64,000 nucleotides of DNA from the human T2T-CHM13v2.0 reference genome, Homo sapiens. Both the position numbers and the translations under genes were made by a program. Of the stretch, positions 21,335 to 33,934 are shown one piece after another. Position 1 is the first letter of the stretch; every line of letters begins with the position of its first letter. The stretch lies in the NCBI RefSeq assembly GCF_009914755.1, contig NC_060930.1; one strand, written 5' to 3'. The notes under the pieces are model-generated. The model did no database searches. It saw nothing but the letters and a program-made list of their open reading frames with translations, and was not told where the DNA came from.

Positions 21335-22062
21335 TAATAATCAATCTCTTTTAGTTTTCCATTTTACTTGTATTCTCTTGTATATCCACTACCATACTCT
21401 TCTTGCCATCACCACCATTAGTTCTGCATTGTCATGTGCCTATACTGATTATCTTGCTTTCCCTGCTCTCCATACTCCTCTATGTGATTGATCTTGAAGC
21501 ACAGTTCTCATGTTATTGTCTTATTATTATTTTTTATTTTCTTTTGCCTATTGAATAAAATCTAGGCTTTTAAGCCTGACATTCAAGGCCTGGTTGATGA
21601 AGAAATTGGCATGGATGGAAAGAAAGAATGGAAAAGAATTCAGGTTTGATGCTTGACTCTGCAGTGGTGGATGATGAAGCTGAGCTATAAGTCAATTCAT
21701 TTTTGAACTTGGATATATTAACAGACTTTTGATACCAATTCTAGGTGTAAAGCACTGGATTATAATATTTGTGTCTTTGTAGCACTGTTCTTATATTAAT
21801 TTTCCTTTCCCAAGTAATTGACATGGCCCTAATATTCTACAGGGGTGTAGGTGCTTCCTTTTAGGTCTTGTCATCATTTTACATTTATATATTTTGAATA
21901 TTTTCCTCTGCTGCTTTTGTTCTGGTTATTTTCTGCTACCCACAAAGCTCCCTCTTCAGAGTAATTCTTGCCAGTCCCAACCAAAAAAAACACTGTAGGT
22001 TTAAATGCTAATTTGGTTTGAATAACTGTTAATGACTTCTAAATTTGCTTGATTGTTTATAG

Positions 22063-22143
22063 GAAGGACCATTACGACCTGTTCTTGAATACATTGATCT
22101 GGTCAGCAGTGATGATGAAGAGCCTAGCACCTCTTATACTGAT
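22063..22143 (+). CDS. ZNF451: ZNF451 coding exon 3 ([27 protein letters not shown]), containing the PLRP motif and SIM2
   Basis: TTTATAG| acceptor, |GTAAGT donor, 81 nt, phase 0; tandem-SIM catalytic module of the ZNF451 SUMO E3. Confidence 0.96.
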
Positions 22144-22859
22144 GTAAGTACATTATATTTGATTTGTGTTTCTTCACTTGTGTCTTTTAAGAGGTATTCT
22201 CTAAAGAGAGTTACCAAATCAGGGAAGGCTGTGTTTAGAAATAGCCAGTTCTATTAGAATGGGCTAAAATAGGTAGTCCAAGGAGTCCTTTGCCCAGATC
22301 TCCTACTTCCAGTTTTTTTCCTCTACTTTGAATGAGATTATGAAAAAAATGATAATATGACTCTGGGAAATTCAGAGCCTTAGAGGTGATATCTGATAAA
22401 ATGGAAATGGAATAAAAACTGCAAGCTTATTGATTCCTCTTTCCCTTCTCTTTTCCTTTACTCTCCTCAGGTGCCCTATACAACAGGATTCTTTTGTTCC
22501 AGAACCACATGACCACAGAAAATTTGTTTTCTCTTAGAAAAAAGGATATGTAGAGATCCTTTTAGGAATGGAAAGTGGGGGAAGGGTTTATAGGGGATAT
22601 ATTACTTCAGTCATCATCCCTTTAACCTTGTCTGTGCCCCACATATTTGGAGTTATTTATCTTACCTGTGATGTACTGGTTGTAGGTTTGACCCTTGGAC
22701 CAATACTTCCCTTGCTCTGAGAATTGAACTAGTTGAGCCCTTTGTAACAGTCTTGCCTTTCATTTGTCCTTGCTTTAGCCCAAACTTCTGTTAATGAGCT
22801 GTTTTCATCTTGGATTAGAAAACTCTTAGTTATTGTTCAGAGTGGCCACAAACTTCTTG

Positions 22860-23050
22860 CTCTGTGATATAGGGGATTGAGACTTGGACTTGGAATCAGA
22901 ATACCTGGGTTTGAGTCCCAGCTTTACTCTTTACAAATTCTGTGACTTTGGATAAATTAAGTAACCTTTTAGCCTCCGTTTTTTAATCAAATAATACCTA
23001 CCTCACAGGGTTGTTGTGAGGATGAAATGAGGTAACAAATTATAACTTCT
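22860..23050. mobile_element. MIR SINE
   Basis: GACTTGGAATCAGAATACCTGGGTTTGAGTCCCAGCT...ACCTACCTCACAGGGTTGTTGTGAGGATGAAATGAG. Confidence 0.75.
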
Positions 23051-23604
23051 TATAACTACAAACCATAAAGTAGGACTATACAACTGGGAAGTTTTGTTAT
23101 TCGTGGACAGTGAATGACAGAATTTTCAGAGGTGCCTAAAATGACTCTAATGGGGGAGTTTTAGATTTTTTTTCTTCTCAGTGGAACTTTCCTTAAGTTC
23201 TCTTTGCCATCATTAGCTTCTTGCATATCTTGAGTAGAACTTAACATATCTTGAATGGGATATTTTTTTCTTTTATTCTTATGAGTGGTCTCACACAGGA
23301 CCAAACAGCAGGCCAGCATAGCACCACGTGATCTGAGCTTGTTTTTACTCTCTCCTTTTTCATAAACAGAGTCCCAGATTAATGCCAGTAGTTGATTTTG
23401 GGTCTTTGGGGTAGTGAAGCTTGTGGATTTGACTTCTCTGATTCCTTTTGCTGACCTTGAGTGGATTGTATCTTTCACTGTTAATTATAATAATTTAAAA
23501 ATTGAGTTCTACTTACTGGACATGAATCTCTGCACTTGAAAGTTAACATATTAAAAGCATATTTTTTTTCTTCCTTGGTTTTCTTGTTCATGTGGATAAC
23601 CCAG

Positions 23605-25098
23605 AGAATGCCTGAATCTAAGGTGCCATCCTCTGAGAATCATCGCCCAGAAATGTGCTCTAGCTGCAATGTTCCTCTTCCCATTGGAGATAGCAGCTCC
23701 TTCTCTGGGAGTTGTTCCAGCAGTCCAGAAAGGATAGTTTCTCAAACTTCCTCTGTTGAGAACCCATTGGAGAACCAGAAAAATGATCAAAATAATTCAG
23801 ATACTAAGATCTCTGAGACAGAGACCCTTAAATCATCACAGAATTTTCAGACTCTGCCTTCATCTCCACTTCTGGTCCCCCAAGAATCTTTGGCCTCTTC
23901 TGAGGTCAAAGAGAATTTACGTATAGATTCTTCTTCAGCTTCACAGCATGGACGGGATGCCATCCTCTATCTCCAGACACAAGTAGCTGAAATGTCCCGA
24001 GTGATACGTGATCTGCAGTCCAGGAGCTGTTTTAGATTTCATCATTCTAGGCCAAGTGAGAACTCCTCAGTTCCTTGGGACATCTCCACCTCTAAAGAGG
24101 AAAATTTATCCACAGTTGAAGAAGAAACTGATTACAAATCACCATCAGCTGATGACAAAGGGCAGCCATCTGACCCCAGCCAATCTAGTTTCACAGGTCT
24201 TTTGAAGAGAATGGAACAAAGAGGTGTTATAAAAAGGGTGACATTACAATCTGAAGCGGAGTCATGTGAAGGGAAACCTGATTGTGTGACTTCTAAAAAA
24301 CGTTTGGTTCCTCCATTGCATCCTCTTCTGAGAATTGCCACCACTGAGGTTTTTAAAGACCCTGCTGATTGCCATCCTTCTTCCTTCATGGGACACAGGG
24401 TATATCCTGTGGCCAAGGACACCTCTCCTTTCCAACCAAACCCACCAGCTGAAGGCCCCATTGTAGAAGCATTAGAACACAGCAAAAGAGGAAACACAAC
24501 ATCCCCTCTAGATTCTACCTCAAAAGAAATGGAGGTCATGGGTTGTAGGTTTTACCACGCTGCCTCCATTGCAGCCCGAGCTGCTAGCTACATGGCCTAT
24601 ATGACTCAATATCAGCGTAAACTCTGGGAAGACATGGAAGATCTGGTTCATGACCCAGAATTTGATCGTGGAAAAGCAAGATGCATAATATCTGATGGTA
24701 TGGATGCAGGCCTTTGGCAACTTTGTACTACTAGGGACATAATGGACTCTGTAGTCAGAGTTATGGCCATGGCCATAGACTATAGACGGCAGGCCTGGCT
24801 TCGACTTACATCTCTCACTAAGAAAACCCAGGAGAAGATCTCCCACTTGCCCTTTGATGGTACTTCCCTTTTTGGACAAGATGTGAAAGCTGTTGTTGCA
24901 GAAGACAACAATATAAAAGAAAATGACTATAAAGATCACAAATACTATAATCAGCATCGATACTTTTATAGTCATGATCAGAAAGCACATTATCACAATA
25001 GAGGATACTCCAAAGGGGATTGGTACAAACCTCGAAACCACCCCTATAGATATAGAAAGAAGGGAGACTCTCCAGAACGCCATGGGTACAAGAATTAA
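23605..25098 (+). CDS. ZNF451: ZNF451 alternative terminal exon (short isoform, ZNF451-3) encoding the LAP2alpha domain, a domesticated DIRS1-like gag
   Basis: Acceptor CCCAG| is in phase 0 with exon 3; 497 open codons to TAA; 62+497 = 559 aa. DIRS gag-type motifs RRQAWLR and HLPFDGTSLFG are present. Confidence 0.93.
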   Translation, partial: RMPESKVPSSENHRPEMCSSCNVPLPIGDSSSFSGSCSSSPERIVSQTSSVENPLENQKNDQNNSDTKISETETLKSSQNFQTLPSSPLLVPQESLASSEVKENLRIDSSSASQHGRDAILYLQTQVAEMSRVIRDLQSRSCFRFHHSRPSENSSVPWDISTSKEENLSTVEEETDYKSPSADDKGQPSDPSQSSFTGLLKRMEQRGVIKRVTLQSEAESCEGKPDCVTSKKRLVPPLHPLLRIATTEVFKDPADCHPSSFMGHRVYPVAKDTSPFQPNPPAEGPIVEALEHSKRGNTTSPLDSTSKEMEVMGCRFYHAASIAARAASYMAYMTQYQRKLWEDMEDLVHDPEFDRGKARCIISDGMDAGLWQLCTTRDIMDSVVRVMAMAIDYRRQAWLRLTSLTKKTQEKISHLPFDGTSLFGQDVKAVVAEDNNIKENDYKDHKYYNQHRYFYSHDQKAHYHNRGYSKGDWYKPRNHPYRYRKKGDSPERHGYKN

Positions 25099-25181
25099 TA
25101 ACCTGTTTAATGTTCAGCAGAGTAGTCATTCAAGATCCTAACTATTTTACTTGTTCCTCCTTGTACAAATAGGATCTACAG

Positions 25182-26440
25182 GTAGGAGATCATCTCAAAA
25201 ACTGGATGCATGTCTGGAATGATCACAGCTGACATTTGAATTCTAGACTTTTGAAATGAAGTATATAATAAAGAAACTCATGACTTATTGGCCAAGTGAG
25301 CAGTGGAGACTTTCTTGAAAGGGTTGGACAAATGTTTATCCTTTATTTCTGGTCCAAAAATAAGTGTGGAGGAGGACCACTCAGGAATCTGAATCCTCTT
25401 GTGATTAAAGAAAAATATAAAGATGTGTTCCTCAGGAAAATCTTATTTGTAAACTGAGGACTAGCAGATTTTGAATCTAGAAATAATACTAGATGTCTGT
25501 TTACTAAGACCAGAGGTAAATCCTTAACTTTTAGGTTATCAGTGCTTCCTTGTTCAGGCTTCAGTTTGACAGATCTTCACAAAATGACACATCTGTTAAA
25601 ATGTCTTTATGTCAAGATGGTCAACTCACCAAGAGTCCGTACTACTATCAAGCTCTGTGAGACTTCAGAATCAGCCATGAAGCTTTGTGTCAACTGGAAT
25701 TCAAATCAAATTTTGCCAAATCCAGTTTGCTTCCCCTTGGAATGGCTAGATGTCGCAGGTCTATTATGGACACCAACTGGAAAAAGACTTCTACCTGTAA
25801 CATCTCTGTAGAAATTGCACAGTAACTATCTTCATCAAGACTTTGATGGCCACCATACCATCACTACTCATAAAGCTACATGTGAGAGAATTGTTTGTTG
25901 TTATCAATCCTAATAGTCTTTGACCTATCAAGCTCTCGTATCAAGCTGTAAGACTGAGTCATGGTAGTCTCTCACTGTAAGCTGGGCCTTTCACCAAGAT
26001 GGCCTTCTTAAACAACCTACCTTCTAAACATTTAATTCTTTTGAGCTTGATAGTGCATCACACTCTAAATACAAAAAAGATACGCACATCAGTGCCCTGG
26101 AAATAAAGGATGTTACACGATCCAGGCATGCAAATCTGAACTCCTAAGACCAAGAATTCCAAACATGCCTGACAATCTTGTCCCCTTATTGTAATAAAGA
26201 GGGATACCATCAGTCTAGATTTTATTGAGAATCCTTAAGATTTAAAGCATAGCTGTGGATGTGGTGAAGAGAACAAGCCACACAGCTCTGTTTCTGGATA
26301 TCTAAGTGATGATATCCATTAATGATTTGAAAGGCTGAAATCAAGATTTAAGTGATACGCTCTTGGTTAATTGGTTACTTAATTTAGTCAGATTCTTAGT
26401 GTAAGAGACAGCTTATCTTTTTGCTCCCAATTGGTCCCAT
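25182..26440 (+). mobile_element. Decayed DIRS1-like pol remnant (reverse transcriptase, RNase H and following region)
   Basis: Colinear motifs across frameshifts: VGDHLKNWMHVW/ITADI*ILD, LLAK*AVE, VYPLFLVQK, LRNLNPLVIKEKYK, VLP..IFTK, QLEFKSNFAKSSLLP, HISALEIKDV, DN..YCNKEGYHQSR, YLFAPNWSH. Confidence 0.78.
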
Positions 26441-27030
26441 TAATAGTTTTTCACCATACTGGAACTGGCAGCAGATACCTCAATTATATGTCCCACAGTA
26501 TCTTCTCTTTAGACTCAAGGTAGTGGATGTATGGTATATCAGCCCTTAGATCCATGTCTTCACAGCATGACATCAGGAATGGAGAATATGTCAAATTTGA
26601 GGGGTCTGAATACATCACCTAGTATTATTTGCTTGGCAGCCAAAAACAGTTGTTTTTATTGACAGACTTAATTCTGTAACTTCTGCGTTTTTTCATCTGC
26701 TTGATCAAGGCATTTTGGATGTACTGCTAATGGAATATGGCACTGTTTTACGGTTTATGTGGCTTCTGTTCTTGCCACAGTTGTTGCACAGTGGTAATTG
26801 ATGTTTTCTCTGGTGCCACACTTTTTAATAATCTATTGGAAGCTCATTCCTCCTCCCCCATCATAACCATATTCAGCACCCATTTTTAAATCTACTTTTC
26901 TTCCTTATTTGTGCTACAGAGGTTGATGGCGTAAATTTTCCTACTTGGAAGAAATTACTTTATCAGTTAATTTCAGGGTACTGTATTGATCTTGTTTGTC
27001 CTATTTGTAGATTAAACTTGAACTAGTCTT

Positions 27031-27036
27031 AATAAA
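27031..27036 (+). terminator. Candidate polyadenylation signal AATAAA for the LAP2alpha isoform
   Basis: AATAAA preceded by ATTAAA (27011-27016) and followed by GT/T-rich sequence; usage not demonstrated. Confidence 0.35.
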
Positions 27037-28969
27037 GGGGATATTGTTTTGCAAATTTAGCCCAGTCATATCAAGAGTTAATATTTATCTTATTTTTCTG
27101 TATTTTACTCAAAATTTTATTTCCACTTCTGTAGAAATAGGTCCATGCCAGTGTTCTCTACAAAGTGTCTTTCAAACTAAACTCTAGAAGAATATCGATT
27201 ACCTGAACAGAAACAAAGGCCTAAGAAATCATACATTTTTGTAGCTTATGTGTATTGCACCAATCAAGCAATCCCATGTGCTCTTGATATTGGCACTGTA
27301 GTTTTATCTTAGAGGACTTGCCACTGGAGAACTCAGTGGTGAGAGACCTTGGAAATGTTTTATGTGGCTGCACATAAGTGTTTCTGACTAGCTAAGGCTA
27401 CTTCAGACTTTTCACTTTCCATTTGTCCCCTTTTCCTTCCCTGAATTAGATGCTATGTCATAAACTTGGTGGTTTTTGAAATACTCTTATTTCAAACCTT
27501 AAACTAAACCGAAATAAGTTATGCCTGAGAATGCGTTTGTCTGAAACGATTTTGGCACTTCCCTTTAATATGCTTCCCCTTCCCTTTGCCTTTTAAATTG
27601 TGGTTAAAAAAAAAGAAAAAAAAAGGCACATAAAGCTGAGCACCTTAACCATTTTTTAAGCGTATGGTAGTGTTGACTATATTTGCATTGTTGCGCAGCT
27701 CCTCCATTCTTAAATATTTGTAAGATGATGTTGCTGTTCTCTTTTCCTCCTGTGATATTTATGTTGCCCAGTAATAAGTAAAAGTATCCTTTCTTAGTTA
27801 CTCTAACTGATATGCCCAAGTGTCTCCAGATACTCTGTTTTCCTGGAAGTGTAAAGGTATTGGGAAATTATCAAATTGGTGACCAAGTAGTTCTGAAAGG
27901 ATTTGACCGTTTAATAGGGATGGGGACAGAATGCAGATCAGGAAGAGTTTTTAGTAATAGATTAGTTTCTTGATTGCAAAAGAAATATCTTTAATGTGTT
28001 AATTTTTTATTATTTTAAAATCTCTGGCATACTTGAATGATAATGTTATAAAACTTAAAGTGAGGATTTGGTCTAGGGAGATTACCCCAATAGAATCAGA
28101 AACTCTTAGTCAGATAATAAATCCTCATATTATGCCTGCCATGTTCAGAACCTGCAACAAAATTCCCTACTAGGCCAACCTCTAACGTTTAAATACCTCT
28201 AGGTTTTCTAGGAGGCCTTGGAATAGTTGCAAGTTTAATGATCTGGTATTCTCAAAAAGGATGTATCTAATGATCTTGATTCTTCAAAATGTTATTTCTT
28301 GATTAGATATACAATGTATATAGAGACAATATGGTTTCTTGTAGTTACTGTGTATAGAGAAGTACTGTTTCCATTTTTATATGAAGTGCCTTTTTAATTC
28401 TACACTTTTCTTTAAAACTTAAACTTTGATGTCTTGCATATATTGCTGGTGGTATTTATGTGAATTTTGTACAGTGATTTAATCTTGTAGTTTATCATTT
28501 GTACAATTGCACTATCTAAATGTACTCCCTTCTGAATGTTAATTTGTTTTCTTTATAGCACTGTTGATTCATTTCAGAAGGTTGTAGAGTATACCTCCCT
28601 CCCCCTTATTTAACTAACTAGACAGTAGTTCCTTTTTGTTATTAGTGAGTGGCTAATTTTGGGGGGCCTTAAGGCAGCTTTGTTTTCTATAGATATGCTC
28701 TAGGTTTTCTGATTGTCTCGTATCTAACCTTGTTCTTAGCCATGATAACACAACTTATATTTGATAAGTGGATGTGTTTACTTGGTTAGAATAAGCAAGG
28801 ACATTTTTAAAAAGCAGTAAATTTGCTGACACTTTTATCTTTTTTTAAAAGAATGAATGACAGCTTCCTTATCAGTATAATTACATTTAAACTTTTTTTT
28901 TTAAACCGTGTGGCAGCTTCTTTATCAATCAGTATAATTCCATTTATTTACTTAGCCCTCAAAATGACA

Positions 28970-29720
<751 letters not shown>

Positions 29721-30841
29721 TAGTCCAATAATTGATTGTCTCATCTGTATGCATCTTATGCATGTGATTCAATAGACTAGATCGATTCTGTGTGGTTTAT
29801 CATAGTAGATACACAAACCAGTCTTTATTTTTTACTTAAGAAAATATATAAGTGGAAGTTATCAGTAAACTGGTGATTATTGTATTGAATGCAAATCTTT
29901 TTATTATTTTTCCAGATATATTGAGTTTTATAAACCATTAAAATATTATTTTATGAAATTTCCCTTCCTGGATGAACAGAATATTGTTTTATTAAATCTT
30001 CTCTTATTAGTGGAATATTTTTTACTTCTTTGTCTTTTCATTTACTTGTTTTTTGTTATAATGAAAACTTTACTAGTGTTTGGTACCATTGAGATAACTT
30101 ATTACTGGAAATTTTGTTTGCTTCCTGTGGGATATATCTGGAAGTGGTCATAGTCCAACCATGTCCTTTTGATGTTGTTAGCATATCAGTTATTCTATGT
30201 ATTGATCTTTTCTTCTCCTGTATTCAACACCTCTTTCTGAAAGGATGTCTGATCTTCCCATAATCGCTTTGATGTAGATGATATTTTTATTCTATCAGTG
30301 TATACTAGACAGGATTTTGATGTGGCTTTGTATTTGTATATTTAAATACCATGTCTTTAAAGCATTATTAGAAGAGATATTCTAGTTTCTTCTAATGTCC
30401 CTTTTAAAAAAAATATAGCCAGTCCAATATCTCAAACTACTTTGATTTTTGAACTTAAATCAACTTTTAGTGCTACCTTGTTTAATGGTAGTAGTATTTT
30501 CTCATTTCTACATGTTCACACAAGTTTATTATATATAGTTTATGGTCATATGTATCTTATAAAAATTTTGAAGCCCATCCCCATGGATTTATTATAATAC
30601 AGCTCTGATATATCTTAAAGTTAACCCGTTTTCCGTAGATGTTAAGGGCTTTACTGGTTGAGGTAACCTATTTCAAATGGTCTGTTGGGTTTTGTGGTAC
30701 CTTGTCAAGAATTCAATAAGAATTCTCAGGCTGTCTGTATTTTCTTTTAGGACTTTGGAGATCTCTCAAGTTGTACTGTTTTCTAGTATTCCTGAGTATA
30801 TTCCTTTGGTAACGTGAAAGTAAATAGTTTATATTTGATGA

Positions 30842-31141
<300 letters not shown>

Positions 31142-32694
31142 TGTATTTGGTGATATTTTAAAAAATTCTACTTTGACCTTAAGTGCTTCAAGAATTGTGT
31201 TCAGTTAGTAGTCCTTTTGTAAGACTAACTTTCATATGCTATCTTTGCTCCATGAGCTATCATAGTACTGTTTTCTTTCATTACCCGTAAGAGTGGCTCT
31301 ATCACAGCATTTACTGTTAAGGGCTACAGTTAGACCTCTTGTTAACTCTACTTTTATTTGTGATGGCTGTGTTTCACACTACCTTGATTTATAAATGTAG
31401 TAATGTGTTAAATAACTATATGTTGTGGTCCCTTAATACCTCTTTTGATTGGTGAGGTAACAGTGATGTGGATGATGAAATAAAAACGTTTCCCCAAGTC
31501 ACTAAACACAGTTTTCAATTCATTTTTTTTTACATATTTAATTTACATCTAACTACTGTTAGGTATGCAGCCCGTTCCTTTTTGCCTTCAGTAGAATATA
31601 GTTATATAAGTAGTCTCATTTAGATTCTTGGGACAGAACGGCCTGTGTATTGATCTTTCTTTAATGGCTTGGAACAGCTTCTATATATTCTGACAGGTCT
31701 TGGAAGCATGTTAATATCCGTGTGTTTAATTGTCATCTTCCTGCCTGGGAAGGCAGTAGAAGAAAGAATCTACATTTGTATAGTCTGTAGTACAGGCTCT
31801 GTGCTGATTGCAAGGCACTCTTGAGAGAAATTCATTCTTATTTTGCAGAAGAAGAACTGAAACTTCATTAAGTCATTAAGCAACTTGCTCAGGTGGTGGA
31901 ACTGAGCTTTAAATATGGACTTTTTCCAGTCTCAATTCAGCATTATACTAGGCTGCCTCCATGTGTTTTTCAAAGCCCCATTCAAGTTTTACTTCTATGG
32001 TAAACTAATTTTACATACACAAATCTTTTCATTTTCTGAACTTCCTTTATGGCTTTACTGTCACCCCACTAGTATTTGATGTCTTAGCTATTAACTAATT
32101 CCTGATTATTTCACTTGTCACATCAGGAACCCTATCCTCTTAGTTCTCCCATTGAGATTTCACTGCTGGACTAAGATTATTCTTGATTCGTAGTCATTGG
32201 TTTCTGTTTCCATTCATTTTCAGCACTGATTATGTTAATCGTATTGCTTGAGTTTTTTCTTTGTTCAATGTTGTTTATTACATTCATTTTGTTTCATATA
32301 CACACATTTTTTTTTTTTAACTGGCATTTTGAGGATATTGGTTTAATGGAAGGAAAAAGGAATGGTGCAAAGCACATGGTATTTGAATTCCAAAGACCTT
32401 GACCCTCAGCATTAGCAAGTCACTTGTTTTCTGAGCCTCAGTTTTCTTACTCTCAAATGAGGTAATATCCGAAAGTACTTTGACAACACACTAAAGCCTG
32501 ATGCAGATTTCCTTTTTGAAGTAATTGTGCTGTTTCTATTCATATTGGATATGGTATTCTATGGTATTGGCTATAGATACATACATTTTAAAATGTTATT
32601 TAACAGCATGTAAATGTTCATTTCATGCCATGTGATCATGTTCCCCTTTATGATTTTTTAAGGCTGTCTTACAAGCCTAACAGTGTACTAAGTC

Positions 32695-32700
32695 ATTAAA
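32695..32700 (+). terminator. Candidate distal polyadenylation signal ATTAAA
   Basis: Ends a long U-rich, UTR-like stretch; usage inferred only. Confidence 0.3.
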
Positions 32701-33934
32701 AGATATATTTAAAGTAAAATAGTCTCTTTTCTCAAGTACAAGCTAAGAAATGCTCATAATAATAAAATAAGAGAATGTAGAATGAGGAGTTAGAGTGTAT
32801 ATGTATGTGTATACAATTTTTGATAGATGGTATTTTGTTATTTCATATCTGTGTTGAAAACAGTCTTTTAGTTTGTCAGACATCTTTTTCAGTACCTGCT
32901 ATGTGCAGGCAGGTATTGAGAAAGGTCTGAGAATACTGAGGGTTAATAAGAGATGGTATATTCTCCAGAGAAATAAATACCACTAAAGTATAAGAGCAGA
33001 TGTCCTTTTTGGAAGAATGCCTGTGGTGATGGAATAAGAAAAGCCATATAGAGGGGTGAGGAAAAGCTTTTCTTACCAAGTGTGTGAGCTGAGTTTTGGA
33101 GGATGATTAGGCAAGAGTTAGTTGGCCTGGTGGAGAAACAGGAGCCAGACATTCAGCTGGAGGAACAGGAGTGTGGAACAGTGTGGGTAACACAATGGGG
33201 TGTGTCTGGTTTCAGAATTATAAGAAATAGTCTTTAGGGGGAACAGAAATGAAGGAGACTAAATAGATGATGATAAATTATCTGTGAATATGTACTGGTT
33301 CCTACATATTCAAAGTGTGCTAAGTTTGTACAGCCATTACTTGTAAGGTTCTAGGAGTTGTCTCTCTAGGGGTTGGTTTGTACCATAGTCCATTATGTAC
33401 ATCTAGAACAATTCTTTCTTTCCCGGAACTGAGCCCAAGGTGGGCTTTCTACAGTGCACCTCTGGCTCTGGGGCAGCTCAAGCAATCAGAAAGAACTGAG
33501 GCACTGGTAGAAAACAACTCTGAGGATGAACAGGATAATGTTCCTGAAGTGGAATGTGGTATCCCTTCATGGTTAAATGGTTGCATACTTCAGGGTCACC
33601 TATGGAAAGGTGTCCTCAGGGTAGCTAAAAGTGGTTAATTTCCTTGTGTTTTGACTTACAGATCATTTCTAGGTGGACTTGGGGAAAATAAAGTTACTTA
33701 TAAAAATATTGCTTCATTGGCATTTGGAGGTGTTGTATTGAAGGAGGAAGTGGGTTCCTATCACCAGAACCCTCTCTAGGTGTTTCAGATAGGAAACTGG
33801 GTTGTAGACCTTGTCCCAGTAATATCTCCAGCAGCTCCAACACATTTTGTCAACTTCGTATTCGTTTTTTAAGTTTTTTTCCTTGCTGTTGGCCACCTTT
33901 ACCTTCTTTTTTTTTTTTTTCCTTCTTTTTCCCT

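What the first reader, a model, noticed from the sequence alone, without database searches (positions are those of the whole stretch)
25182..26440. Fossil DIRS1-like reverse transcriptase and RNase H directly downstream of the domesticated LAP2alpha (gag) exon
Seen by hand translation, starting about 80 bp after the gag-derived stop, in order on the + strand across frameshifts. RT region: VGDHLKNWMHVW (25182-25217) then ITADI*ILD (25222-25248), resembling the DIRS pol start VGGRLxxFxxxWxxITSDxWVL; LLAK*AVE (25285-25308), resembling LLAKGAIE; VYPLFLVQK (25334-25360), resembling FYSRLFLVPK; LRNLNPLVIKEKYK (25380-25421), resembling LRxLNxFLxxxKFK; VLP (25542) then IFTK (25573-25584), resembling LPFGLxxAPRxFTK; QLEFKSNFAKSSLLP (25691-25735), resembling LGFxINxEKSxLxP. 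RNase H region: HISALEIKDV (26085-26114), resembling HINxLELxAV; DN (26171) with YCNKEGYHQSR (26187-26219), resembling SDNxxxxxYINKQGGTRS; YLFAPNWSH (26414-26440), resembling DLFASxxNxK. Established: the LAP2alpha exon of ZNF451 derives from DIRS1 gag, and active DIRS elements are not known in mammals. Inference: pol survives as non-coding sequence in the probable 3' UTR, so the exon is the original insertion site rather than a transduced gag fragment. The YxDD motif is not recognisable. I cannot tell whether this remnant has been reported.
Basis: partly seen in the sequence, partly recalled or inferred. Interest (0 to 1): 0.85.

Follow-up and report, generated by a model that had tools for sequence, protein, structure and literature searches.

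The report
Fossil DIRS pol in ZNF451 UTR
Just after the ZNF451 exon that evolved from a DIRS1-type retrotransposon gag gene lies the badly decayed, non-coding wreck of the same element's polymerase gene, so a whole gag-pol element landed here and only gag was kept.

Summary
All 12 peptide strings sit at the stated coordinates. Ordinary searches miss the signal: Pfam on single frames and tblastn find nothing. I built a profile from 101 natural DIRS1-like pol proteins and aligned it to 25100-26800 with a frameshift-tolerant method. It scores far above controls: z 7.1, reached by 0 of 300 and 0 of 1000 dinucleotide shuffles, 0 of 134 other window tiles and 0 of 74 TMPO-locus tiles.

Four sub-profiles find their best matches independently. 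They fall in native order on the + strand: RT N-terminal part 25255-25445, RT 25616-25735, RNase H 26064-26288, C-terminal methyltransferase-like domain 26417-26542. Plain HMMER on whole frames hits the same four places and only + frames.

Turtle and lizard DIRS proteins score best. Six human retroviral-type RT stretches, one ERV pol and L1 ORF2 score at background. The gag-to-pol spacing is native.

The central RT motifs are not significant alone. No recombinase or terminal repeats were found.

Four further DIRS-like fossils turned up elsewhere in the human genome.

The parts
23605..25098 (+). LAP2alpha exon coding part of ZNF451 (gag-derived), ending in the stop at 25096-25098. DIRS gag homology runs 24052-25062. 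AG acceptor at 23603-23604.
   Evidence: Pfam LAP2alpha E 1e-8. 233 library proteins at E<=0.001, among them DIRS gag-pol fusions. tblastn gag HSPs for 11 of 11 DIRS fusion proteins. Sequence.
25176..25248 (+). Pol N-terminal block (profile 10-34), two frames, one stop. Marginal on its own.
   Evidence: 12.3 bits at the expected place, reached by 19 of 500 shuffles (medium) and 32 of 500 (loose); when the whole 1.7 kb is searched, the best match of this sub-profile lies elsewhere.
25255..25445 (+). RT N-terminal part (profile 65-134: the LLxKGAIE, FYSxxFLVPK and LRxLNxF...KFK region). The strongest anchor.
   Evidence: 27.4 vs 14.5 +/- 2.1, 0 of 200 shuffles (medium); 40.7 vs 25.2 +/- 2.7, 0 of 200 (loose). 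Alignment.
25446..25621 (+). RT centre (profile 143-205: DLxDAYF, LPFG, FTK region). Placed only by colinearity. YxDD not recognisable.
   Evidence: 118 of 500 (medium) and 189 of 500 (loose) shuffles reach the score; profile 206-214, which holds YlDD, is deleted in the alignment.
25616..25735 (+). RT C-terminal part (profile 213-252, ending in the lGfliNlkKSelaP motif).
   Evidence: 19.9 vs 15.7 +/- 2.1, 5 of 200 shuffles. HMMER hit profile 222-252 at 25643-25735, i-E 0.43.
25736..26063 (+). Connection between RT and RNase H (profile 259-382). Placed by colinearity only.
   Evidence: 224 of 500 (medium) and 41 of 500 (loose) shuffles reach the score.
26064..26288 (+). RNase H (profile 398-472: HiNvlEllAv, tDn, YinkqGGtrS).
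   Evidence: 21.8 vs 15.4 +/- 1.9, 1 of 200 shuffles. HMMER profile 398-472 at 26064-26288, i-E 0.023.
26417..26542 (+). C-terminal part of the methyltransferase-like domain (profile 580-622). About 107 profile positions between RNase H and this block are covered by only 129 nt.
   Evidence: 23.7 vs 15.2 +/- 2.0, 0 of 200; 0 of 200. HMMER profile 576-623 at 26405-26545, i-E 0.0011.
25869..25881 (+). End of the short annotated 3' exon (25881), with a CATAAA hexamer at 25869, inside the RT-RNase H connection remnant.
   Evidence: Hub annotation for the exon end. Hexamer scan. Use as a poly(A) signal is inferred, not shown.

Best explanation
A DIRS1-like tyrosine-recombinase retrotransposon carrying at least gag, RT, RNase H and the methyltransferase-like domain inserted in sense orientation into a ZNF451 intron. 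According to Abascal et al. this happened in the eutherian stem lineage.

Its gag reading frame was spliced in through the acceptor at 23604/23605 and kept under selection as the LAP2alpha domain. Everything after the gag stop lost its coding function. It has since decayed as the 3' untranslated region of that isoform.

What remains at 25176-26542 is a non-coding fossil of pol. In the best alignment it has 9 stops and 12 frame changes over 332 matched codons, and 27% identity to the DIRS consensus. It makes no enzyme. Its only present role is as UTR sequence, and one annotated transcript end (25881) lies inside it.

Shown: the homology, order, strand, spacing and family affinity. Inferred: that the element was complete, the timing, and neutral decay.
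For: 1. Whole-profile frameshift-aware score: z 7.1 under two of three preset penalty sets. Reached by 0 of 300 and 0 of 1000 shuffles and 0 of 134 window tiles. The reverse strand and the reversed profile score at background.
2. Four of six sub-profiles place their best match independently and in native order: 25255-25445, 25616-25735, 26064-26288, 26417-26542. Shuffles reaching each: 0, 5, 1 and 0 of 200.
3. Plain HMMER on six whole frames with X at stops reports only + frames, at the same four places and in the same order. i-E values are 1.2, 0.43, 0.023 and 0.0011.
4. Family affinity, RT core: 10 DIRS proteins give z 1.7-7.3, with Pelodiscus 7.3, Pogona 6.2 and Chrysemys 5.3. Six human retroviral-type RT stretches give z 0.0-1.0.
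5. Family affinity, whole pol: P0155 5.9, Pogona 5.2, Pelodiscus 4.6, against 0.2 for an ERV pol. L1 ORF2 gives z -0.8 to 0.1.
6. The gag LPFDG motif lies 329 nt (about 110 codons) before the pol start. In two natural gag-pol models the distance is 108 and 98 residues.
7. The method recovers other DIRS fossils that HMMER confirms at 32-77 bits.
Against: - No single piece is significant in a conventional search. Pfam finds nothing, tblastn finds no pol HSP at E<=10, and the strict penalty set gives 10 of 300 shuffles.
- The statistics rest mainly on an aligner I wrote myself, calibrated only by shuffles and real-sequence tiles.
- Three of six sub-profiles (pol N-terminus, RT centre as part of 141-262, connection) are not significant alone.
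- The catalytic YxDD is absent.
- No tyrosine recombinase was found in 25500-31000 and no terminal inverted repeats in 21500-33000. A complete element is therefore not shown.
- The independent LAP2alpha insertion in TMPO shows no pol remnant.
- Ty3/Gypsy and BEL pol proteins were not available as comparators.
- No orthologous mammalian sequence could be examined.
Confidence: 0.9

Rival explanations
1. Chance: an AT-rich 3' UTR that happens to contain short strings resembling conserved DIRS motifs, picked out by a reader who knew what to look for.
For: Each piece is at noise level in standard searches. With penalties that forbid frameshifts, 10 of 300 shuffles and 4 of 134 tiles reach the score. 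Three sub-profiles are not significant.
Against: 0 of 1000 shuffles, 0 of 134 window tiles and 0 of 74 TMPO tiles reach the chained score. Four independently placed anchors are colinear on one strand. HMMER agrees on their places. The spacing from gag is native.
Confidence: 0.03
2. A fragment of another LTR-type retroelement pol (Ty3/Gypsy such as the old mammalian Gypsy repeats, BEL, or an endogenous retrovirus) that cross-matches the DIRS profile.
For: DIRS RT and RNase H are related to those of Gypsy and retroviruses. A DIRS RT query cross-hits many human retroviral-type RT stretches at 23-36% identity. Gypsy and BEL comparators were not tested.
Against: Six retroviral-type RT stretches, one full ERV pol and L1 ORF2 give z of 1.0 or less on the region, while reptile DIRS proteins give up to 7.3. 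The block at 26417-26542 matches the C-terminal domain of the DIRS profile, outside its RT and RNase H regions; that Gypsy and retroviral pols lack this domain is my recollection, not tested here. The position, strand and spacing are those expected after a DIRS gag.
Confidence: 0.04
3. A real DIRS pol fossil that is still detectable because parts of it are constrained as functional 3' UTR or regulatory sequence, rather than decaying freely. This adds to the main reading rather than replacing it.
For: The TMPO locus keeps nothing detectable. One annotated transcript end lies inside the remnant (hub table).
Against: 27% identity to the consensus, with 9 stops and 12 frame changes in 332 codons. 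By my own rough estimate (not computed with a model) that is about what free decay since the eutherian ancestor would leave. TMPO's insertion is older according to Abascal et al. (mammals rather than eutherians), which alone could explain the difference. No conservation data were available here.
Confidence: 0.15

Closest known systems
DIRS1-like retrotransposons of turtles and lizards (gag, RT/RNase H/methyltransferase-like pol, tyrosine recombinase), as used by Abascal et al. 2015 to trace the LAP2alpha domain
   Same: Same order gag, RT, RNase H, C-terminal domain on one strand. Same gag-to-pol spacing. Best single-sequence scores come from Pelodiscus, Pogona and Chrysemys proteins.
   Different: Non-coding wreck with 9 stops and 12 frame changes. 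About 190 nt are missing between RNase H and the C-terminal block. No YxDD, no recombinase, no terminal repeats detectable. It sits in a mammal, where the papers I read report no such elements.
TMPO LAP2alpha exon, the other DIRS gag domestication in the human genome
   Same: A single large 3' exon from DIRS gag, spliced as an alternative terminal exon (Abascal et al.). The locus was recovered with the ZNF451 domain at E 5e-6.
   Different: No pol remnant is detectable in the 12 kb after the TMPO exon. All 74 tiles score at background.
Other domesticated gag genes of LTR-type elements that keep decayed pol sequence downstream. This comparison is recalled from general knowledge and was not tested here.
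   Same: gag is kept by selection while the neighbouring pol is lost or decays.
   Different: Those derive from Ty3/Gypsy elements. Here the source is a tyrosine-recombinase element, and gag became an alternative terminal exon of a host gene.

Membership tests
Fragment derived from a DIRS1-like retrotransposon | gag-type ORF1 homologous to the LAP2alpha domain, upstream on the same strand | tested here: met
   Pfam LAP2alpha E 1e-8. Homology to DIRS gag-pol fusion proteins.
Fragment derived from a DIRS1-like retrotransposon | Reverse transcriptase of the DIRS type | tested here: met
   Profile 65-134 at 25255-25445, 0 of 200 shuffles. Profile 213-252 at 25616-25735, 5 of 200. DIRS proteins z up to 7.3 against 1.0 or less for retroviral-type RT and L1. 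The catalytic YxDD is not recognisable.
Fragment derived from a DIRS1-like retrotransposon | RNase H of the DIRS type following RT | tested here: met
   Profile 398-472 at 26064-26288. 1 of 200 shuffles. HMMER i-E 0.023.
Fragment derived from a DIRS1-like retrotransposon | Methyltransferase-like C-terminal domain of pol | tested here: met
   Only its last third is seen: profile 580-622 at 26417-26542. 0 of 200 shuffles. HMMER i-E 0.0011.
Fragment derived from a DIRS1-like retrotransposon | Native order and spacing of gag and pol domains | tested here: met
   The order of four independently placed anchors is native. gag motif to pol start is 110 codon-equivalents against 108 and 98 residues in natural models.
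Complete DIRS1-like element | Tyrosine recombinase gene | tested here: not met
   A profile of 50 DIRS recombinases gives background scores on all + tiles from 25501 to 30751. The same profile finds recombinase fossils elsewhere at 60-179 bits.
Complete DIRS1-like element | Inverted terminal repeats and internal complementary region | tested here: not met
   Only two weak inverted pairs in 21500-33000; the right arm of one looks to me like Alu sequence (recognised from memory, not tested).
Endogenous retrovirus pol | RT and RNase H closer to retroviral than to DIRS sequences | tested here: not met
   Six retroviral-type RT stretches z 0.0-1.0. One pol with RVT_thumb, RNase_H and rve gives z 0.2.
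LINE-1 ORF2 | RT similar to L1 ORF2 | tested here: not met
   z -0.8 to 0.1 for the RT part and the whole ORF2.
Ty3/Gypsy or BEL pol | RT and RNase H closer to Gypsy/BEL than to DIRS | not tested
The argument against rests on the C-terminal domain block and on position after a DIRS gag.

The most novel reading that the evidence does not exclude
The ZNF451 fossil is one of a small, so far unlisted set of DIRS-type remains in the human genome. I found four more:
- chr9, 13.74 Mb: RNase H.
- chr12, 28.14 Mb: RNase H end plus methyltransferase-like domain.
- chr5, 94.97 Mb: recombinase.
- chr11, 73.37 Mb: recombinase.

If so, autonomous tyrosine-recombinase retrotransposons were active in the ancestors of mammals or early in the mammalian stem lineage. 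Some pieces may have been kept by selection. The chr5 recombinase half has no stop in about 170 codons and 45% identity to the consensus.
Probability: 0.5. Interest if true: 0.65.

Novelty: new member of a known kind. Interest (0 to 1): 0.5.

Why it matters
The open literature I could search says the human genome holds no DIRS or other tyrosine-recombinase retrotransposon sequence apart from the two gag-derived protein domains:
- Kojima 2018, passages read.
- A 2024 review, passages read.
- Piednoel et al. 2011, who found none in 37 mammals, passages read.

The pol fossil adds direct evidence on how the ZNF451 LAP2alpha isoform arose. At least a gag-pol element inserted in place; this was not capture of a loose gag copy. 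Its tail became the isoform's 3' UTR. That fits Abascal et al.'s guess that the insert brought its own transcript end.

It also shows that frameshift-tolerant profile alignment next to a domesticated gene can recover remains that masking and BLAST miss.

The gain is incremental. It confirms and details a known domestication rather than revealing a new kind of system.

Tried and rejected
- **Pfam on the three + frames with X at stops:** no RT or RNase H family, only a spurious AVR-Pik_HID at E 0.031.
- **tblastn of 11 DIRS fusion proteins against the window:** gag HSPs only.
- **hmmsearch of the pol profile against 4728 stop-to-stop fragments:** all at noise level. Four + strand fragments of the region did appear in colinear order among the top 45.
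- **The search for homologous proteins with the exon protein, longer proteins only:** none scored.
- **My own guess that HHLVLFAWQPKTVVF (about 26610-26655) was the LiaPlW motif:** rejected, 99 of 200 shuffles reach that score.
not supported. The sub-profile holding DLFA finds its best match elsewhere, and 22 of 200 shuffles reach it.
- **Tyrosine recombinase downstream:** none.
- **Terminal inverted repeats:** none.
- **Pol remnant after the TMPO LAP2alpha exon:** none.
- **Genome-wide search with a whole DIRS pol and with its N-terminal 163 residues:** swamped by RT-core cross-matches at 23-42% identity, which look retroviral. Pfam confirmed that for the six stretches I scanned. Neither search listed the ZNF451 locus.
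- **Searching the human genome with an alignment:** not accepted.
- **Pfam PF08333:** not in the library. I used PF02994 to locate an L1 instead.
- **Pfam on the two chr5 recombinase blocks:** silent.

Full report
**Observation**

The window is human chr6 around ZNF451 (hub table). The alternative terminal exon 23605-25098 encodes the LAP2alpha domain: Pfam PF11560 at E 1e-8. The stop lies at 25096-25098.

**Conventional searches see nothing**

- Pfam on each + frame of 25099-26700 with X at stops gave no RT or RNase H family.
- tblastn of 11 DIRS gag-pol or gag-recombinase fusion proteins against the window gave gag HSPs for all 11 (24052-25062). It gave no HSP in the 3' UTR at E<=10.
- hmmsearch of a DIRS pol profile against all 4728 stop-to-stop fragments of the window gave only noise-level scores. 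Four + strand fragments of the region did stand in colinear order among the top 45.

**Comparators**

- phmmer of the exon protein against 1.84 billion representatives gave 233 hits at E<=0.001.
- Some of these hits are gene models that fuse a LAP2alpha-like gag with RVT_1, RNase H or phage-integrase SAM domains.
- A second search with the pol part of one of them gave 814 proteins at E<=1e-20, 120 of them listed. Named sources include Varanus, Pogona, Chrysemys, Pelodiscus and many fishes.
- I kept the 101 proteins that covered at least 90% of a reference pol. These gave a 637-position HMMER profile.

**Frameshift-aware test**

I wrote a local aligner of a profile against DNA. It allows frame changes, codon insertions and profile deletions, and I fixed three penalty sets beforehand. 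Results on 25100-26800:

| Penalty set | Real score | Shuffles (mean +/- sd) | z | Shuffles reaching it | Window tiles reaching it (outside 23500-27500, both strands) |
|---|---|---|---|---|---|
| Loose | 161.2 | 107.1 +/- 7.7 | 7.1 | 0 of 300 | 0 of 134 |
| Medium | 33.4 | 18.1 +/- 2.2 | 7.1 | 0 of 300 | 0 of 134 |
| Strict (frameshifts in effect forbidden) | 20.5 | 16.5 +/- 1.7 | 2.4 | 10 of 300 | 4 of 134 |

- The reverse strand scores 107.1 (loose) and 15.5 (medium).
- The reversed profile scores 118.7 (loose) and 19.0 (medium).
- A further 1000 shuffles at medium penalties: none reach the score, maximum 29.6, Gumbel-fit P 3.3e-5.

**Anatomy**

The medium alignment runs from 25255 to 26288 against profile 65-472. 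It has 332 matched codons. Of these, 91 are identical to the consensus, 9 are stops, and there are 12 frame changes.

Six sub-profiles were searched separately over the whole 1.7 kb (medium penalties):

| Sub-profile | Best match | Shuffles reaching it |
|---|---|---|
| Profile 65-134 | 25255-25445 | 0 of 200 |
| Profile 213-252 | 25616-25735 | 5 of 200 |
| Profile 398-472 (RNase H) | 26064-26288 | 1 of 200 |
| Profile 580-622 (C-terminal domain) | 26417-26542 | 0 of 200 |
| Pol N-terminus | at an out-of-order place (25553-25624) | 4 of 200 |
| Connection | at an out-of-order place (25605-25715) | 41 of 200 |

The first four best matches are in native order on one strand. The last two are not evidence on their own.

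Tested only at the expected place:
- The N-terminus, 25176-25248, is marginal: 19 of 500.
- The RT centre is not significant: 118 of 500.
- The connection is not significant: 224 of 500.

Plain HMMER on the six whole frames with X at stops reported only + frames, in the same order:

| Profile positions | Window coordinates | i-E |
|---|---|---|
| 65-83 | 25255-25311 | 1.2 |
| 222-252 | 25643-25735 | 0.43 |
| 398-472 | 26064-26288 | 0.023 |
| 576-623 | 26405-26545 | 0.0011 |

- The string at 26414-26440 aligns to the LiaPlWprreWf motif of the C-terminal domain, and the match continues for another 29 codons. No shuffle of 200 reaches it.
- The sub-profile that holds the DLFA motif finds nothing there.
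- The fossil therefore includes part of the methyltransferase-like domain. About 107 profile positions between RNase H and this block are covered by only 129 nt, which implies a deletion.

**Which family**

On the RT core (25100-25900), 10 DIRS proteins and 6 human retroviral-type RT stretches were each used alone with BLOSUM62:
- DIRS proteins: z 1.7-7.3, with Pelodiscus 7.3, Pogona 6.2 and Chrysemys 5.3.
- Retroviral-type RT stretches: z 0.0-1.0. Pfam finds RVT_1 in all six. One also has RVT_thumb, RNase_H, Integrase_Zn and rve.

Over the whole pol:
- 12 DIRS proteins give z 0.0-5.9. The best are P0155 at 5.9, Pogona 5.2 and Pelodiscus 4.6. Five of the 12 have z below 1 or have 6 or more of 60 shuffles reaching the score.
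- The ERV pol gives z 0.2.

L1 ORF2 gives z -0.8 to 0.1. Gypsy and BEL proteins were not available, so that rival is met only indirectly.

**Link to gag**

The gag LPFDG motif (24847) lies 329 nt, about 110 codons, before the pol N-terminal block. In the two gene models that keep both landmarks the distance is 108 residues (Chrysemys) and 98 residues. The gag stop is 77 nt before the pol block.

**What is missing**

- A profile of 50 DIRS recombinases gives background scores on every + tile from 25501 to 30751.
- No credible inverted repeats flank the region.
- The independent TMPO insertion was located with the ZNF451 domain at E 5e-6. Its locus was fetched as 17 kb.
- TMPO shows no pol remnant. 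In 74 tiles the maximum is 21.9 (medium) and 132.7 (loose), the latter on the opposite strand.

**Present role**

The fossil lies in the annotated 3' UTR (exons 23605-25881 and 23605-32719 in the hub table). The short transcript end at 25881 lies inside the remnant, 12 nt after a CATAAA. The long end at 32719 follows ATTAAA at 32695. Function beyond being UTR is not shown.

**Literature**

- I read the whole main text of Abascal et al. 2015. It derives the LAP2alpha domain from DIRS1 ORF1. It finds RT, RNase H and integrase downstream of gag in turtle copies. It says nothing of pol remains in ZNF451 or TMPO.
- Its spreadsheet supplement has no occurrence of 'human', 'ZNF451' or 'UTR'. Its PDF appendix could not be read.
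- Passages of Kojima 2018 state there are no DIRS traces in the human genome except the two genes.
- Passages of Piednoel et al. 2011 report none in 37 mammals.
- Passages of a 2024 review say no recognisable tyrosine-recombinase retrotransposon sequences exist in the human genome.
- Passages of two other reviews only cite the domestication.
- Four full-text searches returned no paper reporting the remnant.
- I cannot exclude a mention in subscription journals or in Dfam.

**Seen in passing**

Searching the human genome with DIRS-specific pieces and re-scoring the weak hits revealed four further fossils. They are listed under Noticed in passing.

**Verdict**

It extends into the C-terminal domain and supports in-place insertion of at least a gag-pol element. 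It is a new detail of a known domestication, of moderate interest.

Noticed in passing
G000 C9:13737678-13737993, minus strand (loci L016, L025, L028): DIRS-type RNase H C-terminal part running into the start of the methyltransferase-like domain (pol profile 408-513), with 2 in-frame stops. My aligner gives 68.7 bits against 18.1 +/- 2.1 for 200 shuffles. HMMER gives 32-34 bits, i-E about 1e-12 for the locus. Nothing else DIRS-like lies within 10 kb.
   Followed up: partly
G000 C5:94965496-94966009, minus strand (loci L019, L021, L024): C-terminal half of a DIRS-type tyrosine recombinase (profile 194-365). 179 bits, with 41 of 87 and 30 of 66 residues identical to the consensus, no stop in about 170 codons but two frame changes. 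HMMER gives 76.9 and 50.9 bits. Pfam is silent. No pol within 10 kb. It is much better kept than the ZNF451 fossil, and the reason is unknown.
   Followed up: partly
G000 C12:28137720-28138011, plus strand (locus L029): End of RNase H plus methyltransferase-like domain of DIRS pol (profile 471-581), including the DLFA and DAf...W motifs, with 2 stops. 66.5 bits with my aligner. HMMER 36.7 bits, i-E 5e-13 for the locus.
   Followed up: partly
G000 C11:73365283-73365465, minus strand (locus L020): Short DIRS-type recombinase piece (profile 199-259), 24 of 61 identical, one stop. 60.0 bits with my aligner. HMMER 37.7 bits.
   Followed up: partly
G000 C12:98503000-98520000 (loci L003, L004), TMPO LAP2alpha exon: The open frame holding the TMPO LAP2alpha domain is 539 codons long. 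The 12 kb after it hold no detectable DIRS pol.
   Followed up: yes
proteins P0107, P0030, P0075, P0122: Reptile gene models named 'lamina-associated polypeptide 2, isoform alpha', and models fusing a LAP2alpha-like domain to KRAB or COE1 domains, look like DIRS gag copies merged into host genes by gene prediction. Database names for this domain outside mammals should be read with care.
   Followed up: no
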